From a virus, in IMG/VR virus record IMGVR_UViG_3300032117_000020: a stretch of 64,000 nucleotides of DNA; one strand, written 5' to 3'. Positions 20,098-45,859 of the stretch are shown here, in pieces. Each line of letters starts with the position of its first letter. Position 1 is the first letter of the stretch. The notes under the pieces are model-generated. The model searched no databases. It saw nothing but the letters and a program-made list of their open reading frames with translations, and was not told where the DNA came from. Position numbers and translations under genes: made by a program.

Positions 20098-20128
20098 AAA
20101 AAGCAAGCGCAATTTGCGGAGCAACCTT

Positions 20129-21403
20129 ATGATCAAAAATGCAAAATATATCTATGTAGATGCAGTCAATAATAACAACAAATTCTGGAATATTGAAATT
20201 GATGCCAGTCATACCGTGACTACCTTCTGGGGTCGTGTTGGTGATGAGGGACAATCAAAATCCTTTCCTCATAACTCCGACTATGCTGCAGAAGCGTTCT
20301 TCAATAAGAAATGTCGAGAGAAGGAAAATAAGGGATACACAGTTCAGCGAACCATCAACAACGGCGCATCCGGTCCCACAGTGAAGGTTGTGGAGAGCCA
20401 TAATCTTGAGAATATTGCAAAATCTCAGATTCAAACCAACTCGCCAGAATTGGGTAAGCTGATTTCATATCTCGCCAAAGCAAACGCTCATAGTATTTTG
20501 TCCCAAACATCCATGCAATATAATGATGCCACAGGACTTTTCTCTACGCCATTGGGCATTGTGGATCAAGAGGCAATTGATGAAGCAAGAACATTGCTAT
20601 TAAAGATTAGTGATATGGTGCAGGCTAAAGATTATCGCGAAGATCGATTTATGCCTGTGCTGAGCAATTATCTAAGAATTATTCCTCAAGATATTGGAAG
20701 AAAGCGTCCAAATCCTGAACTATTGTACCCAGATCTTGAGTCAGTGCAGAGGCAGAATAATGTACTGGATTCTCTTGAGGCATCGCTTCAGGTGGCCCTG
20801 TCACCTAAAAATGATGGTGATAACCATACTACTGAGAAAGTTTTTGACGTGAAACTCCACACCGTGGAAGATCTTGGAATTATTGATAGGATTCGCAACA
20901 GCCATTACTCCACAAGGCAGCGCATGCATGCCACCTATAATCTTGATGTGAAAAAGATTTATGAGATTGAAATCGGCAGCATGAAGCGAGCATATGAGGA
21001 AAAGGGCAAAACACTAGGAAATATTTTTGAATTGTTTCATGGTAGCAGAATTTCCAATATTTTAAGTATTCTTCATAAGGGCCTTATGGTTCCACCATCA
21101 AATGCAGGTCATGTATGCGGAAGAAATTTTGGAAACTACACATATTTCGCAAATCAATCCACCAAAAGTCTCAACTATTCATATGGATATTGGGACAACA
21201 AGGCCAAGGACAACAATTGTTTCTTGTTTATTGCTGATGTGGCGCTGGGCAACTATTATGTGCCCGGATACAGCCAACAGGTAATTCCAAATGGATATGA
21301 CTCCTTTTGGGCTAAGGCTGGAAGATCTGGCGTACAAAATGATGAGATTGTGGTAAGAAATACATTTCAGGCTAATCTTAAGTATTTGGTTGAATTTGCC
21401 TAA
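20129..21403 (+). CDS. poly(ADP-ribose) polymerase homologue (WGR domain + PARP catalytic domain)
   Basis: N-term KFWNIEID...WGRVGDEG...KGYT = WGR; C-term LFHGSRISNILSILHKGL, GNYTYFAN, FLFIADVALGN, NDEIVVRNTFQANLKYLVEF match the PARP1 H-Y-E catalytic signature almost residue for residue. Confidence 0.8.
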   Translation: MIKNAKYIYVDAVNNNNKFWNIEIDASHTVTTFWGRVGDEGQSKSFPHNSDYAAEAFFNKKCREKENKGYTVQRTINNGASGPTVKVVESHNLENIAKSQIQTNSPELGKLISYLAKANAHSILSQTSMQYNDATGLFSTPLGIVDQEAIDEARTLLLKISDMVQAKDYREDRFMPVLSNYLRIIPQDIGRKRPNPELLYPDLESVQRQNNVLDSLEASLQVALSPKNDGDNHTTEKVFDVKLHTVEDLGIIDRIRNSHYSTRQRMHATYNLDVKKIYEIEIGSMKRAYEEKGKTLGNIFELFHGSRISNILSILHKGLMVPPSNAGHVCGRNFGNYTYFANQSTKSLNYSYGYWDNKAKDNNCFLFIADVALGNYYVPGYSQQVIPNGYDSFWAKAGRSGVQNDEIVVRNTFQANLKYLVEFA

Positions 21404-27045: not shown

Positions 27046-27417
27046 ATGAGAATTAGTACAGTAGAAATTAGAAAATATATTGCCGATGACGGCGCAGTCT
27101 TTTATAATGAAGAAGACTGCGAAAAATATGAGAAGATTGTTTGGAATTACTACTTGGTTACCGCAGGCCCGGATCTCACAGAAGGTCGCGGATATTATAA
27201 GAGCCATCTGATTAAAGTGGCTGGCTATAAAGATATTGCATTGTGCAAAGTTCAGGATTGGTGCTTTAAAACTTATGGATCGCCGCTTGCATATGTACAG
27301 GGGGTGAGCGAAATTCCAAACTGGATAATCAGCGAAACAACGCCATTGCTGTATCAGCGAGGCACTTCTACATCTGTTGGAGATTATCGCTATGAGTCTA
27401 CTCAAATAACTTTATGA
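27046..27417 (+). CDS. hypothetical protein (123 aa)
   Basis: ORF track. Confidence 0.5.
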   Translation: MRISTVEIRKYIADDGAVFYNEEDCEKYEKIVWNYYLVTAGPDLTEGRGYYKSHLIKVAGYKDIALCKVQDWCFKTYGSPLAYVQGVSEIPNWIISETTPLLYQRGTSTSVGDYRYESTQITL

Positions 27418-28346
27418 CTTTAAATTCTTTTTTCTGCGGAATAGGTGGCATGGATAAGGGCTTTCATAATGAGGGCTTTTCTACCATATATGCCAATGAA
27501 TTCAGCAAAAATATTGCAGAATCTTTTAAAGCAAATTTTCCTGATACTATTCTCGATACTAGGTCAATTTCAAAAATTCCTCTATCTGATATTCCAAATT
27601 CTGATGGTATTCTTGGCGGTTTTCCATGTCAGAGCTACAGCGCCGCAGGCGCTAAGAGAGGTATAGAAGATCCAAGAGGAAAATTGTTTTATGATTATCT
27701 AAAAATTATTGAGCATATTAAGCCAAAATTTGTGGTTTCTGAGAATGTGAAAGGGCTATTATCTCCTAGAAATTCTGACACTTTTTCTATGATGCTAAAA
27801 TCTATTGAAAATATTGGATATAATGTGTCGTACCGGCTAATTAACTGTGCGGATTATGGCATTGCTCAAGAAAGAGAACGAGTGATTATTGTGGCGTATA
27901 GGAATGATTTAAATAAGACTTTCATTTTTCCAGAGCCAATGAATGAAAGAAAAAACTTGAGAGATGTAATGGGGGATTTAGAAAACCTTGAATTTAATGT
28001 GAATAATCATGAATATATTGATGATGGATATTCGCCAATATTTATGTCGAGGCAGCGTGTGAGGGGTTGGAACGAGCCATCTTTCACTATTCTTGCATCA
28101 AGCAGATTTATTCCATTCCACCCATCATCTCCAAAGATGATCAAACACGGCGATAACTTTGAATTCGCGCCAGGAAATTATCGCAGACTCACTGTGAGAG
28201 AATGTGCCAGAATTCAATCCTTTCCAGATAATTATAAGATTGTTTACAAAAATATTAGAGATGGTTATAAAATGATAGGAAATGCTGTGCCACCAATTCT
28301 GGCTCAGATTATCGCAAGGAAAATTAAAGAAGATTTTTCCCGATAA
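27414..28346 (+). CDS. dcm: C5-cytosine DNA methyltransferase
   Basis: motif I FCGIGG, motif IV GFPCQSYS, ENV, QERER, GNAVPP all present in canonical order. Confidence 0.85.
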   Translation: MTLNSFFCGIGGMDKGFHNEGFSTIYANEFSKNIAESFKANFPDTILDTRSISKIPLSDIPNSDGILGGFPCQSYSAAGAKRGIEDPRGKLFYDYLKIIEHIKPKFVVSENVKGLLSPRNSDTFSMMLKSIENIGYNVSYRLINCADYGIAQERERVIIVAYRNDLNKTFIFPEPMNERKNLRDVMGDLENLEFNVNNHEYIDDGYSPIFMSRQRVRGWNEPSFTILASSRFIPFHPSSPKMIKHGDNFEFAPGNYRRLTVRECARIQSFPDNYKIVYKNIRDGYKMIGNAVPPILAQIIARKIKEDFSR

Positions 28347-28367: not shown

Positions 28368-29207
28368 ATGAAAAATCAAGAAATTATCTACAAAACTGTT
28401 GTAGGAAGTCGCTCTCATGGTCTACATGTAGAGGGGATTTCAGACTTTGATTATCGCTATATTTTTAAACCATCATTAAAAAGCATTCTTTCTCCTTTTA
28501 AAAATCAGGAAAGAAAAATTGAGAATAAAAATGATGAAGATGTGGAATCATGGTCTATTGCTTCATTTTGTGAACATTTATGCAAAGGCAACCCCACAAT
28601 GTATGAGGTTATCAAAAGCCCATTATATGATAAAAATCTTGAACATTCAGAACAGATTCGTAAAATGATGCCGTTATCTTTGGACTCAAGAAAAATTCTG
28701 ATGGCTCATGCTGGTTATATTGAGGCGCAATTGAAGCGCTATTTGAGAAAGGCCAGTCATGATTTTAAAGATTATCAATATAAAATGTATTATGATCCCA
28801 ACATGCCACTTCTGGGCATTCCAAAATATGAGATGAAACAATATACCGGATATTCTCAGTTAGAAATTGATGGAGTCTGGGAATTAAATCATCTCCGTAG
28901 GGTGCCGAAAAGCTGCTGTGCTGGATATCGAATTTTCAGTCAATGCATGCAGCTCCTTGAGACAGGCGATTTCTGTCCTGTAATCAGCGATTATTCTCCA
29001 GAACTTCATGATGAATTGATGGAGATTAAACTGATGGACCCATCAACCATTACATGCGGATTCATTCAAACACATCTTGATGAACTTGAGCAAAAAATTA
29101 AAGATCTTCATAAATTTTTTGATAGCCTTCCAGAAAGCAAAAGGAATATGAAACCCAACATCTCAAAAATTGAAGACATTTTATGTGAAATCTATGGAAT
29201 TAGTTAA
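28368..29207 (+). CDS. Pol-beta superfamily nucleotidyltransferase (279 aa)
   Basis: VVGSRSHGLHVEGISDFDYRYIF = hG[GS]x9-13 D x D motif. Confidence 0.55.
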   Translation: MKNQEIIYKTVVGSRSHGLHVEGISDFDYRYIFKPSLKSILSPFKNQERKIENKNDEDVESWSIASFCEHLCKGNPTMYEVIKSPLYDKNLEHSEQIRKMMPLSLDSRKILMAHAGYIEAQLKRYLRKASHDFKDYQYKMYYDPNMPLLGIPKYEMKQYTGYSQLEIDGVWELNHLRRVPKSCCAGYRIFSQCMQLLETGDFCPVISDYSPELHDELMEIKLMDPSTITCGFIQTHLDELEQKIKDLHKFFDSLPESKRNMKPNISKIEDILCEIYGIS

Positions 29208-30620: not shown

Positions 30621-31484
30621 ATGCTTAGGCAAAGAAGATTTGAAGAAGAAAATTATCATGCGATTTTTAATAATGGCAAAACATTGAGATTTGCCATTGA
30701 TCCATCTAAACCAATTTTACCATTGAGATATCCTGAGATTGAGGATTGGGCCATAAATACAATCTGCCTAGCGAATTGCTCGTGGTGCTATGTATCTGCA
30801 TTAAAAACTGGAATTAACTTTGATAATGTAGTGGAAAAAATTCAAGATTATTTCGGAATTATAAGTTTAAACCATAGACCTACACAAATCGCGATAGGGG
30901 GCGCTGGTGAGCCAACAATGCACCCAGATTTTCCAGAGATTTTAAAAACCACATATGACCTCCAAATAATGCCAAACTATACCACCAATGCCATGCATTT
31001 ATCAGATAGGGTTGTGGATGCAACTATAAAATATTCAGGCGGAGCGGCTATTTCATGTCATCCTCATTTGAAAAAGGTATGGACAAAAGGCATTAATATT
31101 CTCACCGAGGCAGGCATCAATACATGTCTACATATTATTCTTGGTGAACCAGGTTCTAACGATGAATTTTGGCGAATTTATGATTCCACTAAAAATATTC
31201 ATTATTATGTGGTGCTGCCATATCAGGCTGCGGGCAGAGCAAAAAAAATTGATGCGGAAAAGGAATGGGATTTATTCTTTAAAGAGGCATTGATTCGGAA
31301 ACCTGATGATGTGAGTTTCGGTGCATTGTTTTATGATTATTTTCTAAGAAATAGAGACATCATGGCAAAGCTTAATGTGAGCATATATGAGCCAGAGGTG
31401 CTTTCGGGATACCGTATTTTTGATGATTCTTATAAACTGCTTAGAAAATCAAGCTATGACCTATCACCAAAATTTAATGATTAA
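30621..31484 (+). CDS. radical SAM enzyme
   Basis: CLANCSWCY = C-x3-C-x2-C cluster; downstream IAIGGAGEPTMHPDF glycine-rich SAM-binding motif. Confidence 0.65.
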   Translation: MLRQRRFEEENYHAIFNNGKTLRFAIDPSKPILPLRYPEIEDWAINTICLANCSWCYVSALKTGINFDNVVEKIQDYFGIISLNHRPTQIAIGGAGEPTMHPDFPEILKTTYDLQIMPNYTTNAMHLSDRVVDATIKYSGGAAISCHPHLKKVWTKGINILTEAGINTCLHIILGEPGSNDEFWRIYDSTKNIHYYVVLPYQAAGRAKKIDAEKEWDLFFKEALIRKPDDVSFGALFYDYFLRNRDIMAKLNVSIYEPEVLSGYRIFDDSYKLLRKSSYDLSPKFND

Positions 31485-34418: not shown

Positions 34419-35714
34419 TCATTCTACCATCGAATCTTTTTTGACACGGGGAACTATATATTCCCCGGAAGAATCTCTAAAACCATCTTTGTTCCAATAG
34501 AAACCTTTCCGGTTAATCTTTTCTTCTCTCACCCATTTGGGGACGAACGGTAGTTCGTCTTCTAACATATTGAGGGAGGCATTCCCGTCTGAGTCCATAC
34601 GATTTCCGCATTTCTTACAGACAAACATCTTTCCTTTCCTGTTAGATTTTTGAGTCCATCCACACTGTGGTGCAGAGCACCTCTGGGAACGAAAAAAGTT
34701 CGGTATGTTCACGATAGAGAAACCTTCTTTCTCGGAAACCGAATCTAATTTCTGATTTATCAGAGTATATGTGAATCTGTTTAGCTGCTTTGACTGAGTT
34801 TTGCCTTTTCTCATTTGGAAAAGACCTTCAAGATTAAGCACTGAAATTTCTGAGAAATTTAATTGGTTGATGCTCCAATTTACTATATTTTCTCTATGAG
34901 TCTGAGCTCTTTGGAAGCCTTTGCTTCCGTATTTTCTTCTATTTAAAATGTCTATAACTGAATATAGATTATGACCATGATTGTTTTTTATGGTTGTTTG
35001 ACCGTCTGACATCGTCAATACTGTTGTAAGTCCCTGATCTGCTCCGACCTTAATTCCCTCTTCTGGTTTTTTCTTAGGTACATCAGGTAATGTAAAACTT
35101 AAACTTATATAGTTGTGTCCGATTCTTATTGAATTCATTATCTGACCGCTGTTTTCAAATTCCTGATATTTCTTATGCTTTTTAAACGGAATTCTTATTG
35201 GCAGCTGATCTTTAAATAATCTTAACTGAATGAAACCGTCAAAATACGAATCTTCTTCTTCTGTTTCCTGAATATCAAAAAATCTATTGTCAATCTGAGG
35301 TTCGATAATGTCAAAGTCAGGCATGGAGATAGAAGATTGATCAATTATTTTCTGAAGATATCGGCATGCTTCACCTTTTTTCATTATTGTTTTCAACACA
35401 TGCTTCTGTCTTCGATATTTAGTTGTACATGACCGGATAATTGATGATGCCTGAGTTCCAGCTGCCTGCAGCTGTCTTTGAGTGAAGACGCCATAGTCAA
35501 ACTTTTTTAAATATTCATTGTCTAAGTTGGAATCCAATTTATAGTTGAATTTTTTAGAATTGAATTTAGAATTGTCAGAGTTTGTATAGGTATTTTTCCA
35601 AATATCATTAACAATCTCTCTTACTGTATTGGAATATTCTGCACGATAATTTGCTAGAAAATCCAGTTTATAATTGTTTGCATATTTGGTTGTTATTTTA
35701 ACTGACCGAATCAT
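34419..35714 (-). CDS. tnpB: TnpB (OrfB) RuvC-like nuclease with intact D-E-D triad and C-terminal zinc finger
   Basis: GADQGLTTV (RuvC-I), LNLEGL (RuvC-II), CKKCGNRMDSDGNASLNM (Zn finger + RuvC-III). Confidence 0.8.
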   Translation of the reverse strand: MIRSVKITTKYANNYKLDFLANYRAEYSNTVREIVNDIWKNTYTNSDNSKFNSKKFNYKLDSNLDNEYLKKFDYGVFTQRQLQAAGTQASSIIRSCTTKYRRQKHVLKTIMKKGEACRYLQKIIDQSSISMPDFDIIEPQIDNRFFDIQETEEEDSYFDGFIQLRLFKDQLPIRIPFKKHKKYQEFENSGQIMNSIRIGHNYISLSFTLPDVPKKKPEEGIKVGADQGLTTVLTMSDGQTTIKNNHGHNLYSVIDILNRRKYGSKGFQRAQTHRENIVNWSINQLNFSEISVLNLEGLFQMRKGKTQSKQLNRFTYTLINQKLDSVSEKEGFSIVNIPNFFRSQRCSAPQCGWTQKSNRKGKMFVCKKCGNRMDSDGNASLNMLEDELPFVPKWVREEKINRKGFYWNKDGFRDSSGEYIVPRVKKDSMVE

Positions 35715-36261
35715 TTTTAAGCTCCTTTATCAGTTGCTCAGTTTTTCTTTTAGACCTTCTCTGTCCATAAATTTTTTCACAAAATGATGTGATAATTGAG
35801 GTAAAATCCTGAATCAGATCATCTTTCTTGTTTTCTGATTCATTGATAACAACAATCTCTCCATTAAATAAAGTTTTAATATATTCAAAACCAAATCTAG
35901 TTAAACGATCTTTATGTTCTACAACAATTCTGGTAACATTTTTATCTTTAAGTATTTTTTGTAGTTTAGGTCTTGAATCATTTATTCCTGACCCACACTC
36001 TTTAATTGTTTCATTGATTGTCCATCCTTTAGCGATACAGAAATTCGATATCCTATCTGCCTGAGATTCTAAATTTGATTTATTTTCAGAGCTGCTGACT
36101 CTAGCATATATTACATTATATTCTTTCTTTTTTAAATCATTTGGAACAATTATGGCTCCCGATGGGAGCCTATATGCCTCTGGCAATTTACCAGACTTGT
36201 ACATGGACCAAGCAGATCTATAAGTAATTCCTTGTGTTTTTGCCCAATCCGTTAACTTCAT
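35698..36261 (-). CDS. tnpA: IS607-type serine recombinase TnpA (MerR-like HTH + resolvase domain)
   Basis: MKLTDWAKTQGITYRSAWSMYKSGKLP N-terminus; YARVSSSENKSNLESQ catalytic-serine motif. Confidence 0.85.
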   Translation of the reverse strand: MKLTDWAKTQGITYRSAWSMYKSGKLPEAYRLPSGAIIVPNDLKKKEYNVIYARVSSSENKSNLESQADRISNFCIAKGWTINETIKECGSGINDSRPKLQKILKDKNVTRIVVEHKDRLTRFGFEYIKTLFNGEIVVINESENKKDDLIQDFTSIITSFCEKIYGQRRSKRKTEQLIKELKNDSVS

Positions 36262-36710: not shown

Positions 36711-37685
36711 ATGGATCTTTATGAAATTTTAGAAATACCGAAAACTGCAAATGATGATGAAATTAAAAAGGCTTATAGAAATTTAGCCAAAAAATATCAT
36801 CCAGATATCAATAAAGACAGCGATGCTGAAACTAAATTTAAGCAGGTCAATGAAGCATATGAGGTGTTGAGTGATCCAGAAAAAAAATCCAATTATGATC
36901 GCTTCGGCAGCGCCGATCCTCATCAACAAATGAGCAATCCATTTGGAGATTTTAATTTTGGCTTTCCATTCAACATGGACAACATGTTCAGTGATTTTTT
37001 TCAGCAATCTTCTTCCTCTAGTTCGCAGCAAAATACAAACGAGCATATCACCCTCACATTATCTCCTAAAGATTATCTACAGGGCACCACTCATACAATA
37101 CATTATACCAAGAAAATGTACTGTGATAAATGCAATGGCGAAGGCGGATTTAATGCGGTGCTCTGCAATGCCTGCCAGGGTGCAGGTGTGCGGTTGAATA
37201 CTGTGCAAAATGGCATATTTATTATGCACCAAACATCTCCATGCAATGCATGTATAGGGAAGGGCAAAATATTTAGTGAGAAATGCGATAGATGCGAAAA
37301 TGGATTAAGGCATATTGATGCAAACTATGATTTGATTGTGGATGCAAATCTGCCGATTCTCACCACATTGCAAGTGAGGAATGCCGGTCATCAGGAACAT
37401 AAGAATCTTCCACCAGGAAACCTCATTATCAGCCTTGGAATCGATACATCTCAGAATCTTGAAATTGATAGAAATGGCACAGCCTATATCACTCAGCAGA
37501 TTACCATAGGAGATTGGTACAATGGAGCAACAATCAATATCAATCGATTTGATGTGGAGGAATTGCCTTATAGCCTCGCAGATTTGAAGAGAAGCGATGA
37601 CTCTATAACTTTTAAGAATAAAGGATTTAAAAATCAGAATAATTATCAGGGGGATTGTGTGGTGAGGTTTAGGGTTGTGAGGTAG
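36711..37685 (+). CDS. dnaJ: DnaJ-like co-chaperone (J domain, G/F region, four CxxCxGxG zinc-finger repeats)
   Basis: [10 protein letters not shown]...[14 protein letters not shown] (HPD motif); [32 protein letters not shown]. Confidence 0.8.
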
Positions 37686-38481
37686 GAATTTTGGTTTTTC
37701 CTGGTGCAAGGGGGCCTATATGGTCATAAGACATATGTGGTTCTAAACTAGGTTTTTTATCATAAATCCTCGTTATATTTTCTTTCCAATGAAGTGGACG
37801 CATATTGGTGTAGCGAAAACATTCTTTTTGTTGCGCTGGATCAGTTAAATCAAATTGAAAACATGGTTTAATGTGGTCAATATGCCAACCCCTAAATCCA
37901 TGATTTTCCCATGTCATCCAGGGCTCAAATTGCGATTCGATATGTTGTTTTAAAAATTCAATACTGCATCCTATAAGGTTCAAAGATTTTTCATATTTTA
38001 GCCCTTTCTGAGCCTTAAGCGCTCGATTAATCCTGCTTCTTAGGGCTGTTTTTAATTTATATTGAATATCGGTTTTTTGCCTCTGTTTCATGATTTCAGT
38101 TCTTCTTTCTCTATAGTTTTTATCATATTCTTTTTTCTTTTCTGCAAGAATCTCTTTATTCTTTCTTTTATATTCTCGATTATTTTCAATCTGTTTTTCT
38201 CTATTTTTATAGTAATACTTTAAACTTTGTTGTTGGCATTTTTCCAAATTTTTGTAATAATCTTTTCTATCTTTTTCTCTATGATATTCCAGATTATTTA
38301 ATCTTTTCTGCCGATTTCGTTCTAATATTTGTTCTTTGTTGTTTTCACTATATATTTTCCGCGCCTCTTTATTGCAGGTAACGCACCAATCACAAAGCCC
38401 GTCTTTTCTTGCTTTATTTTTTGTAAATTCCTTGATGTTTTTGTTTAATTTACATCTTGAACAATATTTTAAATTATCCAT
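37669..38481 (-). CDS. HNH endonuclease with N-terminal zinc finger and Lys/Arg/Glu/Tyr-rich repeat region
   Basis: C-term [10 protein letters not shown]...N..PLHWKEN; N-term CSRCK...CDWCVTC; likely homing endonuclease. Confidence 0.6.
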
Positions 38482-38503
38482 CTGTAATTTTATACAGAAT
38501 TAG

Positions 38504-38532
38504 AAATTCCCAATAAAAATAAAAAGTATAAT
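38504..38532 (+). promoter_or_regulatory. conserved promoter-like motif
   Basis: AAATTCCCAATAAAAATAAAAAGTATAATA; ATG 38553 (21-nt leader). Confidence 0.5.
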
Positions 38533-38552
38533 AAGACAAAGGAAACAAAACT

Positions 38553-40058
38553 ATGAAAAATTTTATTCGAACACCGCTCGCCATTACAGATGCCTACAAG
38601 TTGTCTCATTGGGGCATGTACCCAGAGGGCACCACAGGCATCTATTCTAATTTTACTCCACGTCGTTCACGGCTTCCTGGCGTTGACAAGTTTATGTTTT
38701 TTGGAATGCAATATTTTCTACAAAATTTGAATGACCAATTTAATAATAACTTTTTCAATCTAAGCGAGGATGAGGCTGTTGCAAATTATGACTCATTTCA
38801 CACAGAGTTTTTTGGATCTCCTTCTGATTTTAATAACAATCAAGTGAGGAGCCTCCATCAACTAGGATATCTCCCAATTCGTATCAAAGCCCTCCCAGAA
38901 GGAAGTGTGGTTAATCATAACACGCCTGTCACAACCCTTATGTCTACTGATGATAATCTGTTTTGGTTTACACAATGGATCGAAACCTGGATGTCGGATA
39001 GTGTTTGGAAGACATGTACATCAGCCACCACTGCTTTATATTATCGTAAAATTGTTGAAAAGTATAATAAGTTAACCTCTGATATTGATTGGATTGTAGA
39101 TTTTCAGTGTCATGGATTTGAAATGCGTGGTATGTCTGGTCTCGAAGATGCAATGCAATGCGCAGCCGCACACTGTGTTTTATTTAAGGGTGAAGACACC
39201 TTGCCTGTTATTGAATGGGTAAAGAATTATTATCCTGGTGATAATGGATTGATCGCTACATCAGTCCCGGCAAGCGAGCATGCCGTGGCGACGGCCTACC
39301 TTCCAGAAGATACCAACGACACGATGGCTTCAGACCGTGCGTATGTTAAGCGTATTCTTGATCTCTATCCATCCGGTATTGTGTCCATGGTAAGTGACAC
39401 TTACAATTTTTGGGACCTTGTTACTGTGATTCTTCCAGAGTTTAAAAATCAGATTATAGCGCGAGATGGAAAACTTGTAATTAGACCTGATAGTTCTCCT
39501 AAGACGCCGGTTGAAATGATTATTGGTGATAGTGAGGCTCCTGATGGATCTCCTGAAAATAAAGGATTAGTACAATGTTTGTACGAAATTTTTGGAGGCA
39601 CTGTAAACAGCAAGGGATATATTGATCTTGACTCTCATATCTCTGCCATTTACGGAGATTCTATACAGAGGGAGTATGCTGAGGCTATCTTGGAGGGCCT
39701 CATGAAGAAAGGCTTTTCTTCAAATAACATAATTTTCGGCGTGGGGAGCTTTAGCTATCAATATTCCACGCGGGACTCGCACAGCATCGCTATTAAATGC
39801 ACTGCTGTTGCCTCTGGCTATGGATCAGACAAGCGCTGGAAGGCTGTTTTTAAAGACCCTAAGACAGATAATTCAGGCAAGAAATCTGCGAAAGGATTTT
39901 TGAGAATGGATTTGGTCGATGGAGAATATGTCTTTACGCAGGACGTGTCGTTAGAAGAAGAGCAAGGCGGTGCATTGGAAACTGTTTACGAGAACGGCAA
40001 AATTATGAGGATGCAGAGTTTCGCAGATGTGCGAGCAGTTGCTAAAAAATTCCTCTAA
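38553..40058 (+). CDS. nicotinamide phosphoribosyltransferase-family enzyme (NadV/NAMPT or NARP1 Namat-like)
   Basis: TDAYKLSHWGMYPEGTT N-terminus and overall length match the NAMPT family. Confidence 0.85.
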   Translation: MKNFIRTPLAITDAYKLSHWGMYPEGTTGIYSNFTPRRSRLPGVDKFMFFGMQYFLQNLNDQFNNNFFNLSEDEAVANYDSFHTEFFGSPSDFNNNQVRSLHQLGYLPIRIKALPEGSVVNHNTPVTTLMSTDDNLFWFTQWIETWMSDSVWKTCTSATTALYYRKIVEKYNKLTSDIDWIVDFQCHGFEMRGMSGLEDAMQCAAAHCVLFKGEDTLPVIEWVKNYYPGDNGLIATSVPASEHAVATAYLPEDTNDTMASDRAYVKRILDLYPSGIVSMVSDTYNFWDLVTVILPEFKNQIIARDGKLVIRPDSSPKTPVEMIIGDSEAPDGSPENKGLVQCLYEIFGGTVNSKGYIDLDSHISAIYGDSIQREYAEAILEGLMKKGFSSNNIIFGVGSFSYQYSTRDSHSIAIKCTAVASGYGSDKRWKAVFKDPKTDNSGKKSAKGFLRMDLVDGEYVFTQDVSLEEEQGGALETVYENGKIMRMQSFADVRAVAKKFL

Positions 40059-40062
40059 GATA

Positions 40063-40086
40063 GTTATATCTCGCTAGGGATATAAC
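40063..40086 (+). terminator. hairpin GTTATATCtcgctaggGATATAAC after NAMPT gene
   Basis: 8-bp stem directly after stop codon. Confidence 0.5.
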
Positions 40087-40176
40087 CTTTACAATCCCCG
40101 CAACTAACAAACTTGGCGCGAAGGCGCAAACGATATTGAAACCATCACAATCTCCGCGTCAAGTTACTCAACAACA

Positions 40177-40446
40177 ATGGACAATACCAACAACAACACA
40201 ATTAACTTCGACAACTATAAACTCTATATTATCAGCAATGATGGACCCAGTAGAGAGGCATGCAGTGTTTTTTACGCGCAATATATCATTGCTAAAAGCA
40301 AGAAAGAAGCGGTGGAATCAGCCCTGGATGACGCGGAATATGACCCTGCCACAGATTCATTTAATTATATTGGCAATGATCCAAATATGAATAGTTATTA
40401 TGATGAATATTTTGTGATTGAAGAAAATCCAGTTTTAGTTCATTAA
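40177..40446 (+). CDS. small acidic protein, paralogue family with 1421..1705 and 40476..40700
   Basis: YKLYIISNDG...IIAKSKKEAVESAL..AEYD. Confidence 0.5.
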   Translation: MDNTNNNTINFDNYKLYIISNDGPSREACSVFYAQYIIAKSKKEAVESALDDAEYDPATDSFNYIGNDPNMNSYYDEYFVIEENPVLVH

Positions 40447-40472
40447 ATCTCCCAATAAAAATAAAAACATTT
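40446..40472 (+). promoter_or_regulatory. conserved promoter-like motif (truncated -10 variant)
   Basis: AATCTCCCAATAAAAATAAAAACATTTACA; ATG 40476. Confidence 0.45.
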
Positions 40473-40475
40473 ACA

Positions 40476-40700
40476 ATGAACCACAATAAATTCTATATTA
40501 TCAGCAAAGATTGCCCGAATAGTTTAGTTCGGGCCAAATTCGCAATGGCTAAAAACCTTAAAGAGGCTGTGGAAGCCGTTTTGAAGGATGCGGAATATGA
40601 TGAAAATGCAAATAAATTCATCAACATCGGCAATGATCCTGATAAGGATGAGTATTACGATGAATGGATTATTGTAGAAGATGAACTGAGTGTGGCTTAA
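40476..40700 (+). CDS. small acidic protein, paralogue of 40177..40446
   Basis: NKFYIISKDCP...KNLKEAVEAVLKDAEYDE. Confidence 0.5.
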   Translation: MNHNKFYIISKDCPNSLVRAKFAMAKNLKEAVEAVLKDAEYDENANKFINIGNDPDKDEYYDEWIIVEDELSVA

Positions 40701-40709
40701 CAACATAAT

Positions 40710-41141
40710 ATGAAAACACCAGAAATTAAGAAAATTATCACACAATATATCGTTAACAGTAGAGATTCATATAAGCCACCTGAAGGCTGGAATTATTATC
40801 CGGTAACTCATACACTGCATGATGAATATGGCTCTGACTATACTCATGACGGCACTAAGCCTGCTGATTGGAAAAGACGAAGCAAATTGTCTGTAAATGG
40901 ATCTGATTATCGTTTATTTGAATCTGTTCCTTTTAAATTTGACAAAATGGGCGATTATATTTTGGTCGTCGAGGCAGATGATATGATTCAAGAAATCAAA
41001 TGGGTGACAGAAAAAGAAGCACTTGAGTTTGGTTTTGTGATTCAAGACTGGCTTGGAGGCAGCACTAAAATGATAGGTGGTCAAATTTATGAGTCCTGGC
41101 TTGATGGATCATGGGAGCTAAAAAACTATGTTAACAATTAA
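40710..41141 (+). CDS. hypothetical protein (143 aa)
   Basis: ORF track. Confidence 0.5.
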   Translation: MKTPEIKKIITQYIVNSRDSYKPPEGWNYYPVTHTLHDEYGSDYTHDGTKPADWKRRSKLSVNGSDYRLFESVPFKFDKMGDYILVVEADDMIQEIKWVTEKEALEFGFVIQDWLGGSTKMIGGQIYESWLDGSWELKNYVNN

Positions 41142-41994
41142 AGACAAACACAACAATATTCTTCACTGGGAAAAGAATTCTTTCCCTGATGGTCAGATGC
41201 AGTTTAAAATGCTGGAATCAGAAGCAAGAAAGGCAATGAAAATTCTTGCATCGATTCCCGATTCTGTGTCGTTGGATTTATTTCTTCAAGCAATTTACAC
41301 ATTAAAGAAATATAATCTTCAGGATGTGCGGATCAATTATCTCTATGGCGCGAGGTCTGATAAGGATAAGGCAGGAGAATGTGCGGTGGCGAATGTGGCG
41401 GATTATGTTCAGAGATTGATTGATGGTGTGAGCGATACTACATTATTCATTCACAACAATTCCAATAATGCAAAAAAATTATCTTCCCCCACAATCTCTG
41501 TACTTGCGCCTCATTGCAAACTTCCTGATTCCATTCATAGTGATTATTCATTGAATTACCCAGACTTCAATATTAATACCTTAAGGAATTATGATATGAT
41601 TGTGTTTCCTGATGAATCGGCATACGAAAGATTCGCGCATTTAATTCCTGAGGGAGGAATGTTTGATGTATGCGAAAAACATCGCGATCAGGTCTCTGGA
41701 GATATTATCAGTCATAAAATTCCAGAATTGCCAGAGAATGTTGGTAAAATATTGTTAATTGATGATCTATGCGATTTCGGAAATTCTTTCACAAATGTTG
41801 GAAAGAGTGTACCGAGTTCTGTAAAGGCGGATTTATTTATATTTCATGGTGTTTTCACAGGAAACGCAATCCCGAGACTGCTCGCCTATTATGAAAAAAT
41901 TATTGTCACAAATTCTCTATCGGCACCTGAAGATCAAAAATCCTCATTATCAGCAGAAGATCAAGAAAGAGTACAAATTCTAAATGTATGGTAA
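41128..41994 (+). CDS. ribose-phosphate pyrophosphokinase (Prs)-family enzyme; candidate ADP-ribose pyrophosphokinase (Adps) of a NARP1-like pathway
   Basis: FPDGQ, INYLYGARSDK (cf. PYFGYARQDRK), VFPDESAYERFAHL, ILLIDDLCDFGNSF (PRPP-binding loop), HGVFTGNAIPRL. Confidence 0.75.
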   Translation: MLTIKDKHNNILHWEKNSFPDGQMQFKMLESEARKAMKILASIPDSVSLDLFLQAIYTLKKYNLQDVRINYLYGARSDKDKAGECAVANVADYVQRLIDGVSDTTLFIHNNSNNAKKLSSPTISVLAPHCKLPDSIHSDYSLNYPDFNINTLRNYDMIVFPDESAYERFAHLIPEGGMFDVCEKHRDQVSGDIISHKIPELPENVGKILLIDDLCDFGNSFTNVGKSVPSSVKADLFIFHGVFTGNAIPRLLAYYEKIIVTNSLSAPEDQKSSLSAEDQERVQILNVW

Positions 41995-42009
41995 GATAAA
42001 AATCTTACC
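41990..42009 (+). terminator. hairpin GGTAAGATaaaaATCTTACC spanning the Prs stop codon
   Basis: 8-bp stem. Confidence 0.45.
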
Positions 42010-42118
42010 CCATTTTCCACACACGCACGTAGCTCGTGCCACTGCCGAAGCAACGACTCCAATAGCAGTGATCCGGAAGCAGGGAGTCCGCCATCGTAAA
42101 CCGGTAAATCATTGTAGC

Positions 42119-42182
42119 GAATAATTGTGTGGAATCATTTTTCTTAAAAAAATAATTGTGTGGAATCATTTTTCTTAAAACA
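42119..42182. repeat. tandem direct repeat, 2 x ~32 bp (ATAATTGTGTGGAATCATTTTTCTTAAAA)
   Basis: two adjacent near-identical copies in intergenic region. Confidence 0.7.
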
Positions 42183-42190
42183 ATTATGTA

Positions 42191-42221
42191 AAATTTCCCA
42201 ACTAAAACAAAAACAATAATA
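42191..42221 (+). promoter_or_regulatory. conserved promoter-like motif
   Basis: AAATTTCCCAACTAAAACAAAAACAATAATA; ATG 42226. Confidence 0.5.
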
Positions 42222-42225
42222 CATT

Positions 42226-42465
42226 ATGACAAAATATCTAGCTTACTTCTCAGCCCCTGAATGCAATGGCGGCATGCCCACATTCTATCCATTTTTTGAT
42301 AATCTTGATGATGCAAAACAATTCTGCGAGAATCATTTGAAAGATGATTTGGCAGAAAATATTCCTGGCGAAAGTATTGATGAATGGGTTAAAGATGACT
42401 ATTCACCTAACACTTTAATTCTTGGGGACTGGGGCTACTGCATCACCAAATTGGAGATTAATTAA
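42226..42465 (+). CDS. hypothetical protein (79 aa)
   Basis: ORF track. Confidence 0.5.
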   Translation: MTKYLAYFSAPECNGGMPTFYPFFDNLDDAKQFCENHLKDDLAENIPGESIDEWVKDDYSPNTLILGDWGYCITKLEIN

Positions 42466-42468
42466 AAT

Positions 42469-43575
42469 ATGGGTTGCTTTAATGTAGCATGTAATTTGAC
42501 CGGCGTTTCGATGTATTCGGACAAAGCGCTCTGGGTGCCCTTGATCTATTCAAATGAAAACAGCAAACCATCTTATGGCGGAAATCACTTTATCTATCCA
42601 ATTGCTGTTTTCACACCAATCGCATGTCCTGTATTCGGAAATGTGGATAGCTATGGTCGGCTTGAAAATATTGTTCGCACACCCAATGTAGAGGCAATTG
42701 AAAAGTATTTTAATGCGAATATTGATGATATTATTGATAATCCTAGTCATTTTAACATTGATGGACTAAATAATTCTTCATTATCTGGCACATTCATTCA
42801 TCATGATGCTTTTGAATGGAGTAAGAAAAATCTTTTTGATGATTCTGGATCGAATATCACCAATATTCTAGATTCTGATATGAAGCCAGAAATTTTGAAT
42901 ATCTGCGGATTTAATTTTGTGGAAAAAGACTATCAAAAGAACCGATATAATCAGCTATATACCTCTGAAAGATATCCGGGTGTTGAATGGTGGAGTGACG
43001 GCACTTGGGGAAATTTCGGCGATGACTCTGTTTCAGTGTTTAATCCTGTAGATTTTTTCAAAGTGCTTAAGCAACTCACAGGAATCGACCCCGATCCCGA
43101 TACTTTAGGGTTACTAGAAAATACTTGGTCTACATTGTTCCATTTGCGGGCTCAAATCGCCAAGGTAAATAAAGACTGTGAACTATATAAATCTATGAAG
43201 GATCTATCTACCAAGTTAGATCTGGAAGAATTGGATGTTAATTTTGATCTATCCGCTTATGATCGACAGAATCTCTATGGTTTCTGTAAAAATGAAGGTG
43301 CGAGATGGGAGGCTAAGGATATTGTGGATAAGATTTACGGACATGATTTAGACCTTTATGCGGAGGATCTAGCGAATTTGATTCATTTAAATATCGCACT
43401 GTATGTGAATAATCGTTTTTGGAGCCCTCAGGTCAATGGCTATCAGCTTGGATCATTATATCAGGAAAAGGCTATGGCTCAGTGGATTATTGATCGTGCG
43501 GATAAAGAATTAAAGGCAATTCAGGATGAGGAAGAGGAGTTTGAGAACGGTTGTGGAGATGAAACCAGATTATGA
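42469..43575 (+). CDS. hypothetical protein (368 aa)
   Basis: ORF track. Confidence 0.55.
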   Translation: MGCFNVACNLTGVSMYSDKALWVPLIYSNENSKPSYGGNHFIYPIAVFTPIACPVFGNVDSYGRLENIVRTPNVEAIEKYFNANIDDIIDNPSHFNIDGLNNSSLSGTFIHHDAFEWSKKNLFDDSGSNITNILDSDMKPEILNICGFNFVEKDYQKNRYNQLYTSERYPGVEWWSDGTWGNFGDDSVSVFNPVDFFKVLKQLTGIDPDPDTLGLLENTWSTLFHLRAQIAKVNKDCELYKSMKDLSTKLDLEELDVNFDLSAYDRQNLYGFCKNEGARWEAKDIVDKIYGHDLDLYAEDLANLIHLNIALYVNNRFWSPQVNGYQLGSLYQEKAMAQWIIDRADKELKAIQDEEEEFENGCGDETRL

Positions 43576-45145: not shown

Positions 45146-45513
45146 ACAATATAAATTTAAAAGAAAAACCATCATGGCTAGAATTGCCAGAATCTGAAAA
45201 ATTATCTCATACTTATTGGGTATGTTATGGCACAAGCATCAATTTAGAAACTACGCCTCGTGAGAGTAGGTGCTTTATCATCTTTCATTCTAAAGAAGAG
45301 ACCGAGGCTGATGCGTGTTGCAAATGTGAAAATTGGATCTGGGATAAAAAACCAGCCCAACCTACAACATTAAAAGAAACTATGTTTGATGCTAGGAGCA
45401 AAGGTCTTTTAGGTGTGAAAGTTAAAGGATATGTAGATGGAAAATGGGCAATTCTCAAGTTTTATCCTGCTGATGTGCCATTGCCATTGAGTGAGTTAGA
45501 TAATGAAATTTAA
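45142..45513 (+). CDS. hypothetical protein (123 aa)
   Basis: ORF track; ATGA overlap. Confidence 0.5.
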   Translation: MNNINLKEKPSWLELPESEKLSHTYWVCYGTSINLETTPRESRCFIIFHSKEETEADACCKCENWIWDKKPAQPTTLKETMFDARSKGLLGVKVKGYVDGKWAILKFYPADVPLPLSELDNEI

Positions 45514-45859
45514 ATCAGAAGAAATAGCAAAAATTATTCATTCAGCCACCTGCAATCTGAATAGAATGGATGGATCAAAGGTGGAAAATTGGGAAAATCT
45601 TACTGAATTTCAGCGAGAAAATGCAAAAAACGCTGTAAAAAAGATTTATTCAGAGCCATCCCGCACACCGGAGGCGCTGCATAATTTATGGATGGAGCCT
45701 CTTATTAAAGATGGCTGGACCTGCGGAGAATATGATCATACCTCTAAAACGCATCCATCAATTTTGCCTTTTGAAGAGCTCAGCGATACTGAGGTGCTAA
45801 AGGATTATATTTGGTATCATCTCACAGAGGCTTTTAGGAATTATTATGATGGAGAGTGA
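45503..45859 (+). CDS. hypothetical protein (118 aa)
   Basis: ORF track. Confidence 0.5.
   Translation: MKFKSEEIAKIIHSATCNLNRMDGSKVENWENLTEFQRENAKNAVKKIYSEPSRTPEALHNLWMEPLIKDGWTCGEYDHTSKTHPSILPFEELSDTEVLKDYIWYHLTEAFRNYYDGE

What the first reader, a model, noticed from the sequence alone, without database searches (positions are those of the whole stretch)
38553..41994. NAMPT-like + Prs-like gene pair: candidate NAD+ reconstitution pathway (NARP1-type) countering NAD+-depleting immunity
38553-40058 is a clear nicotinamide phosphoribosyltransferase-family protein. 41128-41994 is a ribose-phosphate pyrophosphokinase-family protein with a PRPP-binding loop (ILLIDDLCDFGNSF) and the YGARSDK motif. 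No NMN adenylyltransferase (HxGH) gene is visible in the window. That argues against the classical NadV/NatV salvage route (NARP2-like). It favours the described two-enzyme ADPR-pyrophosphokinase (Adps) plus nicotinamide-ADPR transferase (Namat) route, which rebuilds NAD+ from ADPR and nicotinamide after Thoeris, DSR or other NADase defences fire. Alternatively the pair may simply be NadV plus a PRPP-supplying Prs. Three small ORFs of unknown function separate them. The co-occurrence with a NAD+-consuming PARP in the same genome is unusual.
Basis: partly seen in the sequence, partly recalled or inferred. Interest (0 to 1): 0.7.

Follow-up and report, generated by a model that had tools for sequence, protein, structure and literature searches.

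The report
Phage NAD+ rebuilding pathway (NARP1)
This phage carries a divergent copy of the already described two-enzyme NARP1 pathway, which rebuilds NAD+ from the fragments left by bacterial NAD+-destroying defences, so it is a new example of a known counter-defence and not a new kind of system.

Summary
ORF 38553-40058 (+, 501 aa) is a NAMPT-family protein. ORF 41128-41994 (+, 288 aa) is a very divergent PRPP-synthetase-like protein. Three small ORFs lie between them, and no NMN adenylyltransferase, Nudix, NadR or PnuC gene is in the window.

- **Namat signatures.** The NAMPT-like protein has the published Namat motif GSXΦXΦXΦTRD as GSFSYQYSTRD. It also has the adenine-stacking Arg40 and IYGDSI. 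KVP40-type Nampts have GMGGGLLQxxNRD and IQGDG instead.
- **Namat placement.** It scores 375 bits against the SPβL1 Namat structure and about 190 against human or Xanthomonas Nampt. It groups with Adps-associated Namats in 100% of bootstraps.
- **Adps features.** The Prs-like protein keeps the Adps acceptor and catalytic residues and a DDLCDxGxSF PP loop. It separates from class I Prs in 100% of bootstraps and matches an Adps profile far better than a Prs profile.
- **Conserved neighbourhood.** In seven metagenomic relatives the same gene follows a NAMPT-family gene. In six of them a RyR-domain (RyDEP-like) gene follows, as in the window (45503-45859).

No enzymology was possible. Verdict: a new, divergent member of a known kind, of modest interest.

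The parts
38553..40058 (+). Namat-type nicotinamide ADP-ribose transferase (NAMPT family), 501 aa. Core residues are D13, Y15, F189, R192, D215, H243, R311 and D313. R40 is the SCL stacking residue (PRRSR, residues 36-40). The SCH motif GSFSYQYSTRD is at residues 398-408 (nt 39744-39776).
   Evidence: Family hits. Best PDB match is SPbetaL1 Namat 9w5x at 375.6 bits, against about 190 bits for human and Xanthomonas Nampt. Motif table. NJ tree with 100% bootstrap. Residue positions.
40177..40446 (+). Small ORF w89 (89 aa), function unknown. It is a paralogue of w74. Homologues sit between the Namat and Adps-like genes in two related contigs.
   Evidence: 48% identity to w74, and tblastn hits at 57-59% identity in L021 5240-5464 and L026 6759-6980. 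The AF2 model has pLDDT 69 and no fold match below E 0.01.
40476..40700 (+). Small ORF w74 (74 aa), a tandem paralogue of w89, function unknown.
40710..41141 (+). ORF w143 (143 aa), an orphan gene of unknown function. Its end overlaps the Adps-like start by 14 nt, which suggests co-translation.
   Evidence: Coordinates. No Pfam, PHROG or NCBIfam hit. Only one weak relative (E 5e-4) among 1.84 billion representatives. AF2 pLDDT 49.
41128..41994 (+). Divergent Adps-type ADPR pyrophosphokinase (PRPS fold), 288 aa. Counterparts of ICP1 Adps residues are F19 (F18), R76 (R87), H129 (H121), D162 (D161), K184 (K185) and D212-D213 (same numbers). The PP loop is DDLCDFGNSF (residues 212-221). A clade-specific insertion spans residues 95-120.
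   Evidence: phrog_619 at 2e-25. Alignment and key-residue table. Trees. HMM and phmmer scores. hhalign and conservation across 54 clade members.
45503..45859 (+). RyR-domain protein (118 aa), RyDEP-like. It is a candidate cADPR glycosidase or sponge that would feed or shield the pathway. H60, W63, H84 and D101 correspond to RyDEP H75, W78, H100 and D117.
   Evidence: Pfam RyR at 8.7e-8, above the cutoff. Sequence and RyDEP sequence. Orthologues at 46-66% identity lie downstream of the Adps-like gene in 6 of 7 relatives.

Best explanation
The two genes encode a divergent NARP1 pathway. The 288-aa PRPS-like enzyme (Adps type) would transfer the beta,gamma-pyrophosphate of ATP to the free ribose of ADP-ribose, giving ADPR-PP. 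The 501-aa NAMPT-like enzyme (Namat type) would then displace the pyrophosphate with nicotinamide and regenerate NAD+ directly. This would let the phage replicate in hosts whose defences (Thoeris, DSR, SIR2-HerA, SEFIR and similar) cleave NAD+ into ADPR and nicotinamide. The nearby RyR-domain protein probably belongs to the same strategy. It would either hydrolyse Thoeris cADPR signals to ADPR, which is substrate for Adps, or sequester them. Shown here: family membership, discriminating motifs, clade placement and conserved synteny. Inferred: substrate specificity, activity and the anti-defence phenotype.
For: **Namat**
- The top PDB hit is SPbetaL1 Namat at 375.6 bits, against about 190 for bona fide Nampts.
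- The published Namat-only consensus GSX-Phi-X-Phi-X-Phi-TRD (PMC12774641) is matched exactly by GSFSYQYSTRD.
- R40 aligns with the adenine-stacking R40 of SPbetaL1.
- All five NARP2-type Nampts, including the PRPP-preferring KVP40 enzyme, have GMGGGLLQxx[ND]RD and IQGDG instead.
- The NARP2 versus Adps-associated split has 100% bootstrap, with the window on the Adps-associated side.

**Adps**
- Counterparts of ICP1 Adps F18, R87, H121, D161, K185, D212, D213 and D216 are all present. The PP loop is DD[IL]CDxGxx[ST]F like other Adps, not DDMIDTGGTL as in E. coli Prs (PMC13586617).
- These residues are invariant or nearly so across 54 clade members.
- Canonical class I Prs separate from all phage sequences, window included, at 100% bootstrap. 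The window clade falls outside the known Adps in only 11% of replicates.
- The window scores 95.7 bits on a known-Adps HMM and falls below reporting on a Prs HMM.
- hhalign of the window clade scores 254 against Adps and 84.5 against Prs.
- Its best pairwise hits are all Namat-associated Adps.

**Context**
- In 7 of 7 metagenomic relatives the Adps-like gene lies 0-8 genes downstream of a NAMPT-family gene.
- The two proteins give congruent clades, each with 100% bootstrap.
- A RyR gene lies downstream in 6 of 7 relatives. One relative has a Macro gene between the two core genes, as in published NARP1-AP (preprint 10.64898/2026.01.28.702374).
- No NMNAT is in the window.
Against: - There is no biochemical or genetic test.
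- The Adps-like protein is only 22-64 bits from any characterised or isolate-phage Adps in pairwise phmmer. It gets no Pfam hit. It carries a clade-specific insertion of about 25 aa, plus RSDK and PHC in place of the usual RxDR and PHS. Its acceptor specificity could therefore differ.
- E. coli Prs scores higher on my small Adps HMM (130 bits) than the window does (96 bits), so the argument rests on the difference between the two HMMs and not on absolute similarity.
- The trees are neighbour-joining on a small sample, and the only outgroup was bacterial class I Prs. Archaeal class III Prs, which are the best PDB hits at E 4e-4, were not included.
- Namat enzymes retain some PRPP activity in vitro (PMC12774641), so a salvage role cannot be excluded.
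- Only 64 kb of the genome is visible, so an NMNAT elsewhere cannot be ruled out.
Confidence: 0.85

Rival explanations
1. Classical salvage. The NAMPT-like enzyme is a NadV that makes NMN from nicotinamide and PRPP. The Prs-like enzyme supplies PRPP from ribose-5-phosphate. A host enzyme, or a phage NMNAT encoded elsewhere, completes NAD+ synthesis in a NARP2-like way.
For: Both families have these ancestral activities. Namat retains about half of human Nampt's NMN-forming activity in vitro (PMC12774641). Only part of the genome is visible. Two relatives (L021, L026) carry PnuC-like and AAA_28 genes between the pair, which shows that this lineage does mix salvage components.
Against: The window protein lacks the NARP2 Nampt signatures and carries the Namat clamp. 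It lies on the Adps-associated side of a split with 100% bootstrap. The Prs-like protein falls far below every curated Prs threshold and groups with Namat-linked phage Adps. No NMNAT or Nudix gene is in the window. Osterman et al. found no phage with both pathways, and 94% of KVP40-type Nampts come with an Nmnat.
Confidence: 0.07
2. A modified NARP1. The divergent Adps-like clade, with its insertion, RSDK and PHC, pyrophosphorylates a different acceptor. Candidates are an ADPR derivative such as ADPR-1''-phosphate or 2'-phospho-ADPR, or another nucleotide-ribose. In that case the pair would rebuild NADP+ or another dinucleotide, or handle products of defences that plain NARP1 cannot.
For: The clade is a long, 100%-supported branch with a unique insertion next to the regulatory-flexible loop that contacts the ADPR adenine in ICP1 Adps (PMC13586617). 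The Namat partners of its closest relatives carry a 13-15 aa insertion inside the adenine-binding SCH motif, which hints at co-evolving substrate pockets in this lineage.
Against: The window's own Namat has the canonical, uninterrupted SCH motif and R40. The ADPR-contacting residues of Adps are conserved. One relative uses a Macro (Adpp-like) gene, which implies that plain ADPR is the substrate for its Adps.
Confidence: 0.06
3. The pair serves the phage's own NAD+ economy and not counter-defence. It would recycle nicotinamide and ADP-ribose released by the phage-encoded PARP at 20114-21403.
For: An orthologous PARP (46% identity) lies 2.5 kb from the NARP1-Macro-RyR module in related contig L028. 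PARP activity yields nicotinamide, and after hydrolysis of the polymer it yields ADPR.
Against: NARP1 occurs in about 4% of phages, most of them without a PARP. In the window, PARP is 17 kb away. The conserved partner is a RyDEP-like anti-Thoeris protein. No PAR glycohydrolase or Macro gene was found in the window.
Confidence: 0.02

Closest known systems
NARP1 (Adps + Namat) of Bacillus phage SPbetaL1, Escherichia phage Bas63 and Vibrio phage ICP1 (Osterman et al., bioRxiv 10.1101/2024.02.11.579819; structures in PMC12774641 and PMC13586617)
   Same: It is a two-gene pair of a PRPS-like and a NAMPT-like enzyme within a few genes of each other. The Namat has the catalytic core, the SCH motif GSXΦXΦXΦTRD and the SCL Arg. 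The Adps has conserved acceptor residues, the catalytic Lys, a DDxCDxG-type PP loop, and no C-terminal Prs regulatory helices. Length is 288 aa, against 315 for E. coli Prs.
   Different: Namat is only 40-42% identical to SPbetaL1 and ICP1 Namat. The Adps-like protein is barely detectable pairwise (22-30 bits to Bas63, SPbetaL1 and ICP1) and is invisible to Pfam. It carries an insertion of about 25 aa and has RSDK and PHC variants. Gene order is Namat then Adps, the reverse of most isolates, with three unrelated small genes between.
Microcystis phage Mvi-JY20 (PP438412) genes XAI95469 and XAI95470
   Same: It is the closest isolate phage. Namat is 51% identical, the gene order Namat then Adps-like is the same, and the Adps belongs to the same 100%-supported clade.
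   Different: The genes are adjacent and overlapping in Mvi-JY20. The Adps-like protein is only 28% identical and lacks the insertion. That record annotates them as a generic NAMPT and a PRPP transferase.
Extended NARP1 operons: NARP1-AP with Macro/Adpp (bioRxiv 10.64898/2026.01.28.702374) and NARP1 with RyDEP in Mycobacterium phage DyoEdafos (bioRxiv 10.64898/2026.05.28.727677)
   Same: Accessory genes are inserted in or next to the NARP1 pair. The window has a RyR-domain gene 3.5 kb downstream with the RyDEP H/W/H/D residues. Relative L028 has a Macro gene between the core genes.
   Different: In the window the RyR gene is about nine genes away from the pair and not inside it. The window has no Macro domain. 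The genes actually inside the pair (w89, w74, w143) belong to no described family.
NARP2 / NadV-NatV of Vibrio phage KVP40
   Same: It uses a NAMPT-family enzyme to restore NAD+ during infection.
   Different: KVP40-type Nampts prefer PRPP, have GMGGGLLQ..NRD and IQGDG signatures, and are paired with an NMNAT-Nudix gene. The window protein has none of these features and is only 30% identical.

Membership tests
Namat (NARP1 second enzyme) | NAMPT-like catalytic core: nicotinamide-stacking Tyr and Phe, Asp215, the catalytic His, and Arg306/Asp308 (SPbetaL1 numbering) | tested here: met
   The window has D13, Y15, F189, R192, D215, H243 (ASEHA) and R311/D313 in VIRPDS. One deviation is HGF in place of the usual HDF at residue 188. 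That position also varies in relatives (HAF in L024).
Namat (NARP1 second enzyme) | [quoted passage not shown] | tested here: met
   GSFSYQYSTRD at residues 398-408: F at position 3, Y at position 7, Phi1 = S, Phi2 = Q, Phi3 = S. Five NARP2 Nampts show GGGLLQxx[ND]RD instead (definition from PMC12774641).
Namat (NARP1 second enzyme) | Selectivity-clamp loop that contributes an Arg, Lys or Tyr stacking residue | tested here: met
   PRRSR, with R40 aligned to SPbetaL1 R40.
Namat (NARP1 second enzyme) | Phylogenetic placement with Adps-associated enzymes and not with Nmnat-associated Nampts | tested here: met
   NJ tree of 21 sequences. The split has 100% bootstrap over 300 replicates. The PDB score ratio is 375 to 190 bits.
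Namat (NARP1 second enzyme) | Preference for ADPR-PP over PRPP, producing NAD+ directly | not testable with these tools
   Requires an enzyme assay.
Adps (NARP1 first enzyme) | PRPS-like two-domain fold with conserved acceptor and catalytic residues (ICP1 F18, R87, H121, D161, K185, D212, D213, D216) | tested here: met
   All are aligned and identical in the window and invariant or nearly so in 54 clade members. The fold itself is inferred from full-length profile alignments (phrog_619 and NCBIfam Prs models), not from a structure model.
Adps (NARP1 first enzyme) | Remodelled PP loop conserved among Adps homologues (ICP1 C215-S220; DD[IL]CDGxx[ST]F) as opposed to the Prs loop DDMIDTGGT | tested here: met
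   The window has DDLCDFGNSF. The Phe at position 6 is shared with SPbetaL1 (DDLSSFGGTF).
Adps (NARP1 first enzyme) | Member of the phage Adps clade, separate from cellular Prs | tested here: inconclusive
   It separates from five bacterial class I Prs at 100% bootstrap and is nested among known Adps in about 89% of replicates. HMM and hhalign scores favour Adps. However, the window clade is a long branch, the method was NJ, and no archaeal or class II Prs were included.
Adps (NARP1 first enzyme) | Loss of the C-terminal alpha11-alpha12 filament and regulatory module of Prs | tested here: met
   The protein ends about 27 residues earlier than E. coli Prs and aligns with the short C-termini of other Adps.
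Adps (NARP1 first enzyme) | Converts ADPR + ATP to ADPR-PP and does not use ribose-5-phosphate | not testable with these tools
   Requires LC-MS assays.
NARP1 pathway | adps and namat within about ten genes of each other (criterion of Osterman et al.) | tested here: met
   Three genes and 1,069 nt separate them. The same linkage is seen in 7 of 7 relatives.
NARP2 (Nampt + Nmnat) | An NMN adenylyltransferase, usually fused to Nudix, encoded with a KVP40-type Nampt | tested here: not met
   There is no CTP_transf_like or NUDIX Pfam hit among 70 ORFs. tblastn with three phage Nmnat proteins gave E>2. The Nampt signature is absent. This applies to the 64-kb window only.
RyDEP (RyR-domain anti-Thoeris proteins) | RyR/R12 domain with the catalytic dyad His75/Asp117 and ligand residues Trp78 and His100 | tested here: met
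   Pfam RyR scores 32.7 bits, above the cutoff of 27.4. H60, W63, H84 and D101 have matching spacing against the published RyDEP sequence. These residues cannot tell whether it is a glycosidase or a sponge.

The most novel reading that the evidence does not exclude
The divergent Adps clade and the genes wedged between namat and adps form a lineage-specific extension of NARP1. The wedged genes are the duplicated w89/w74 family, which recurs at this position in related phages, and the orphan w143, whose end overlaps the adps start. For example, they could be new accessory factors that convert or capture further NAD+-derived defence products for Adps, or that inhibit NADase effectors. This would be analogous to the Macro/Adpp and RyDEP add-ons, possibly coupled to the conserved phage PARP.
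Probability: 0.15. Interest if true: 0.6.

Novelty: new member of a known kind. Interest (0 to 1): 0.33.

Why it matters
NARP1 is a recently described, broad-spectrum way for phages to defeat NAD+-depleting immunity. This locus extends it to a lineage of large freshwater-type phages. The closest isolate is a Microcystis phage, and related contigs reach 370 kb. The Adps in this lineage is so divergent that Pfam misses it entirely and curated Prs models score it far below threshold. Current surveys based on such profiles may therefore undercount NARP1. The locus also adds to the picture of a modular NAD+ toolbox, with RyDEP-like, Macro, PnuC/NadR-like and unknown small genes swapped in and out between the two core genes. 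It offers natural sequence variants for testing what sets Adps and Namat specificity: an insertion near the Adps RF loop, and an insertion within the Namat clamp in relatives.

Tried and rejected
- **Nucleotide search.** megablast of the locus against 50,697 phage records found no match.
- **Adps in the PDB.** No Adps structure is in the PDB copy. ICP1 Adps itself finds only Prs entries. A direct sequence comparison with a solved Adps was therefore impossible, and the ICP1 sequence came from its genome record and the paper's supplement.
- **Promoters and terminators.** The scan of 38300-42500 gave counts no higher than shuffled controls, so operon boundaries could not be defined.
- **Small ORFs.** They have no Pfam, PHROG or NCBIfam hit. 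The word-indexed search for w89 found only itself. The full HMMER search for w143 found one marginal hit. The AF2 model of w143 was unusable at pLDDT 49. The w89 model (pLDDT 69) had no fold match below E 0.04 in BFVD or 0.5 in the PDB. None of them is a Macro domain by Pfam.
- **Selection test.** Identical metagenomic copies carried no substitutions to test.
- **First tree attempt.** The Biopython bootstrap tree timed out, and `get_support` returned no values for the deeper clades containing the window sequence. I replaced it with my own split counting.
- **Rejected reading: housekeeping-type Prs.** Scores are 21-41 bits against cutoffs of 113-297.
- **Rejected reading: KVP40-type NadV.** The signatures and clade do not fit.
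- Both structure predictions went to the small ORFs, so no model of the Adps-like protein was made.

Full report
**What is there**

The window has about 35% G+C, and nearly all genes lie on the + strand. It looks like part of a large phage genome. It contains a TnpB/resolvase element, a C5 methylase, a DnaJ, a PARP, a radical SAM gene and many orphan genes.

ORF 38553-40058 (501 aa) is a NAMPT-family protein. It matches Pfam NAPRTase plus NAMPT_N, phrog_448 at 3.5e-170, and NCBIfam PRK09198 at 466 bits, above the cutoff of 405.

ORF 41128-41994 (288 aa) is a very divergent relative of ribose-phosphate pyrophosphokinase.
- It has no Pfam hit, even at E<=10.
- It matches phrog_619 at 2e-25 over nearly its whole length.
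- It aligns with NCBIfam Prs models at 21-41 bits, against cutoffs of 113-297.

Three ORFs of 89, 74 and 143 aa fill the interval. The last one overlaps the start of the Prs-like gene by 14 nt. Gene callers on identical metagenomic contigs call the same five genes.

**Namat or Nampt?**

A 2026 structural paper on SPβL1 Namat (PMC12774641) defines what separates Namat from Nampt. Both share a catalytic core. Namat adds an adenine-binding selectivity clamp made of two elements:
- a loop that contributes an Arg, Lys or Tyr stacking residue (R40 in SPβL1).

The window protein reads GSFSYQYSTRD at residues 398-408 and PRRSR at residues 36-40. R40 has the same numbering as in SPβL1.

I aligned it with 12 Adps-associated enzymes from isolate phages, 3 Adps-associated enzymes from metagenomic contigs, and 5 Nmnat-associated (NARP2) Nampts. 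The NARP2 set includes the biochemically PRPP-preferring KVP40 NadV. Every Adps-associated enzyme from an isolate phage shows the clamp motif or a close variant of it, plus an IYGD[SAG]-type motif (LYGEGI in A511). The three metagenomic partners keep IYGD but carry an insertion inside the clamp motif. Every NARP2 enzyme shows GMGGGLLQxx[ND]RD, or a variant of it, plus [IL]QGDG. The window protein is of the first type.

Other evidence agrees.
- Against the PDB, the best hits are the SPβL1 Namat entries 9w5x and 9w5w at 375 bits. Human, rodent and Xanthomonas Nampts score about 190 bits.
- In a neighbour-joining tree, the split between NARP2 Nampts and Adps-associated enzymes has 100% bootstrap. 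The window protein is on the Adps-associated side.
- The catalytic residues are intact. The only oddity is Gly in place of Asp in the HDF triplet, a position that also varies in relatives.

**Adps or Prs?**

A 2026 paper on ICP1 Adps (PMC13586617) lists the relevant residues:
- acceptor-contacting residues F18, R87, F92, H121, D161, D212 and D213;
- the essential K185;
- a remodelled PP loop (C215-S220) that the paper reports as conserved across Adps homologues;
- loss of the C-terminal regulatory helices of Prs.

I took reference Adps sequences from genome records (Bas63, SPβL1, ICP1 and ten others) and from the supplement of Osterman et al.. Canonical Prs came from E. coli and four Actinobacteria.

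In the alignment, the window protein keeps every listed residue except F92, and F92 is not conserved among Adps either. Its PP loop is DDLCDFGNSF. That resembles DDICDGAASF (ICP1), DDICDGGRTF (Bas63) and DDLSSFGGTF (SPβL1), and differs from DDMIDTGGTL (E. coli Prs). It also ends where other Adps end.

Placement by tree and profile:
- Canonical Prs separate from all phage sequences, window included, in 100% of bootstraps.
- The window falls in a 100%-supported clade of metagenomic sequences plus Microcystis phage Mvi-JY20.
- That clade is placed outside the known Adps in only 11% of replicates.
- An HMM built from known Adps, with the window clade excluded, scores the window at 95.7 bits. An HMM of canonical Prs does not report it at all.
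- Profile-profile comparison gives 254 (window clade versus Adps) against 84.5 (window clade versus Prs).
- The key residues are invariant or nearly so in 54 clade members, so this is an enzyme under constraint and not a relic.

Several caveats apply. The clade is a long branch. Its pairwise similarity to characterised Adps is very low, at 22-30 bits. It has a specific insertion at residues 95-120 and RSDK and PHC variants. My outgroup lacked archaeal Prs. I therefore rate clade membership as probable, not proven.

**Context**

Seven metagenomic contigs encode relatives of the Adps-like protein at 37-64% identity. In all seven, a NAMPT-family gene lies upstream. What sits between the two genes varies:
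- nothing in L022, L027 and L029;
- three small ORFs in L024;
- a Macro-domain gene in L028;
- a block containing a PnuC-like transporter and an AAA_28 protein in L021 and L026.

A Macro gene at that position is the published NARP1-AP arrangement. There, Adpp dephosphorylates ADPR-1''-phosphate made by aRES defence.

Six of the seven contigs have a RyR-domain gene a few genes downstream. In L021 that gene is split by an inserted resolvase/TnpB element.

The window has the orthologous RyR gene at 45503-45859, 46-66% identical to those copies. Its residues H60, W63, H84 and D101 match the catalytic and ligand-binding residues H75, W78, H100 and D117 of RyDEP. RyDEP is a recently described phage glycosidase that opens Thoeris cADPR signals to ADPR and feeds NARP1. 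Some RyDEP homologues act as sponges instead, and sequence alone cannot tell which this one is.

The namat and adps trees are congruent for this lineage. Separation of the two genes has precedents. Aeromonas phage 65 has genes 368 and 375. Microbacterium phage Cece has three small genes between them. Osterman et al. accept up to ten genes.

**NMNAT**

No NMNAT, Nudix, NadR or PnuC gene was found in the window. This rests on Pfam scans of 70 ORFs, tblastn with three phage NMNAT-Nudix proteins, and motif regexes. It covers only 64 kb. Osterman et al. report that no phage carries both NARP1 and NARP2.

**The small ORFs**

w89 and w74 are tandem paralogues at 48% identity. They have homologues at the same position, between namat and adps, in L021 and L026. 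No family, fold or function could be assigned.

w143 is an orphan gene with one marginal hit in 1.84 billion representatives and an unusable structure model. These ORFs occupy what is clearly a hot spot for accessory-gene insertion in this lineage. Their role is unknown.

**PARP**

The PARP at 20114-21403 has WGR, PARP_reg and PARP domains. A 46%-identical orthologue lies 2.5 kb from the module in the 370-kb contig L028, with conserved neighbouring genes. The co-occurrence is therefore lineage-conserved and not peculiar to this genome. Phage PARPs were already noted in a survey of jumbo phages (PMC7824862). A functional link to NARP1 is speculative.

**Mechanism and verdict**

The best explanation (confidence about 0.85) is a NARP1 pathway. 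Adps converts ADPR plus ATP to ADPR-PP plus AMP. Namat converts ADPR-PP plus nicotinamide to NAD+ plus PPi. A RyDEP-like protein nearby acts on Thoeris signals.

The family assignments, discriminating motifs, clade placement and synteny are shown here. Substrate preference and anti-defence activity are inferred from characterised homologues.

The rivals are classical NadV/Prs salvage, an altered acceptor specificity of this divergent clade, and recycling of the phage PARP's own products. They are less supported but not excluded.

This is a new, divergent member of a known kind. About 4% of sequenced phages carry NARP1. Interest is modest. It comes mainly from the extreme divergence of the Adps, which standard profiles miss, and from the uncharacterised genes embedded in the module.

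Noticed in passing
window 45503-45859 (+): This 118-aa RyR-domain protein keeps the RyDEP catalytic and ligand residues as H60, W63, H84 and D101. Orthologues follow the Adps-like gene in six of seven related contigs, which suggests a conserved Namat-Adps-RyDEP module in this lineage.
   Followed up: partly
window 20114-21403 (+); L028 10453-11769: This eukaryote-type PARP (WGR + PARP_reg + catalytic domain, 429 aa) has a 46%-identical orthologue 2.5 kb from the NARP1 module in a 370-kb related contig. The flanking genes are conserved (HATPase_c_3, rIIB-KTSC, DUF2786/DUF7168).
   Followed up: partly
L021 3631-5178, L022 2519-4090, L024 5249-6784: The Namat partners of the closest Adps-like relatives carry a 13-15 aa Gly-rich insertion inside the adenine-binding SCH motif (GS..Y.G.GGGL....[IG][SG]RD). 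The window and Mvi-JY20 enzymes lack it. Its effect on substrate choice is unknown.
   Followed up: no
L021 6462-8007; L026 4403-5948; L028 6420-6956: The interval between namat and adps is a hot spot for NAD-related cargo. Two relatives have a PnuC-like NMN_transporter plus an AAA_28 (NadR-kinase-like) protein there. One relative has a Macro domain (Adpp-like, NARP1-AP). So NARP1 is combined with NARP3-like or phosphatase add-ons in this lineage.
   Followed up: partly
window 37669-38481 (-); L024 4372-5214; L026 71-973; L028 3761-4768: Homing-endonuclease-type genes sit immediately upstream of namat in most loci. They are HNH/EndoVII-like in the window, LAGLIDADG in L024 and L026, and T5orf172/MUG113 in L028. 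The module also occupies different genome positions in the window and in L028. Together these suggest the module is mobile.
   Followed up: no
window 34419-36261 (-): An IS605-type TnpB (431 aa, Cas12f1-like TNB domain) is paired with a serine resolvase (187 aa). Similar elements are common in the related contigs, and one has split the RyR gene of L021.
   Followed up: no
window 36711-37685 (+): The phage encodes a full-length DnaJ co-chaperone (J domain, CXXCXGXG zinc finger and C-terminal domain, 324 aa).
   Followed up: no
window 40177-40700 (+): Tandem duplicated small genes w89 and w74 are 48% identical. Homologues sit between namat and adps in L021 and L026. This is a recurrent NARP1-associated small-protein family with no detectable fold or family match.
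   Followed up: partly
L016 5985-6791 and 7959-8455 (Microbacterium phage Cece): An isolate phage with NARP1 also encodes a PnuC-like transporter and an adenylyltransferase within 3 kb. One phage may therefore carry NARP1 together with a NARP3-like route.
   Followed up: no
window 27414-28346, 28368-29207, 30621-31484 (+): A C5 cytosine DNA methylase (Pfam 1e-87), an RlaP-type nucleotidyltransferase and a radical SAM protein are clustered here. They may act in DNA or RNA modification or repair.
   Followed up: no
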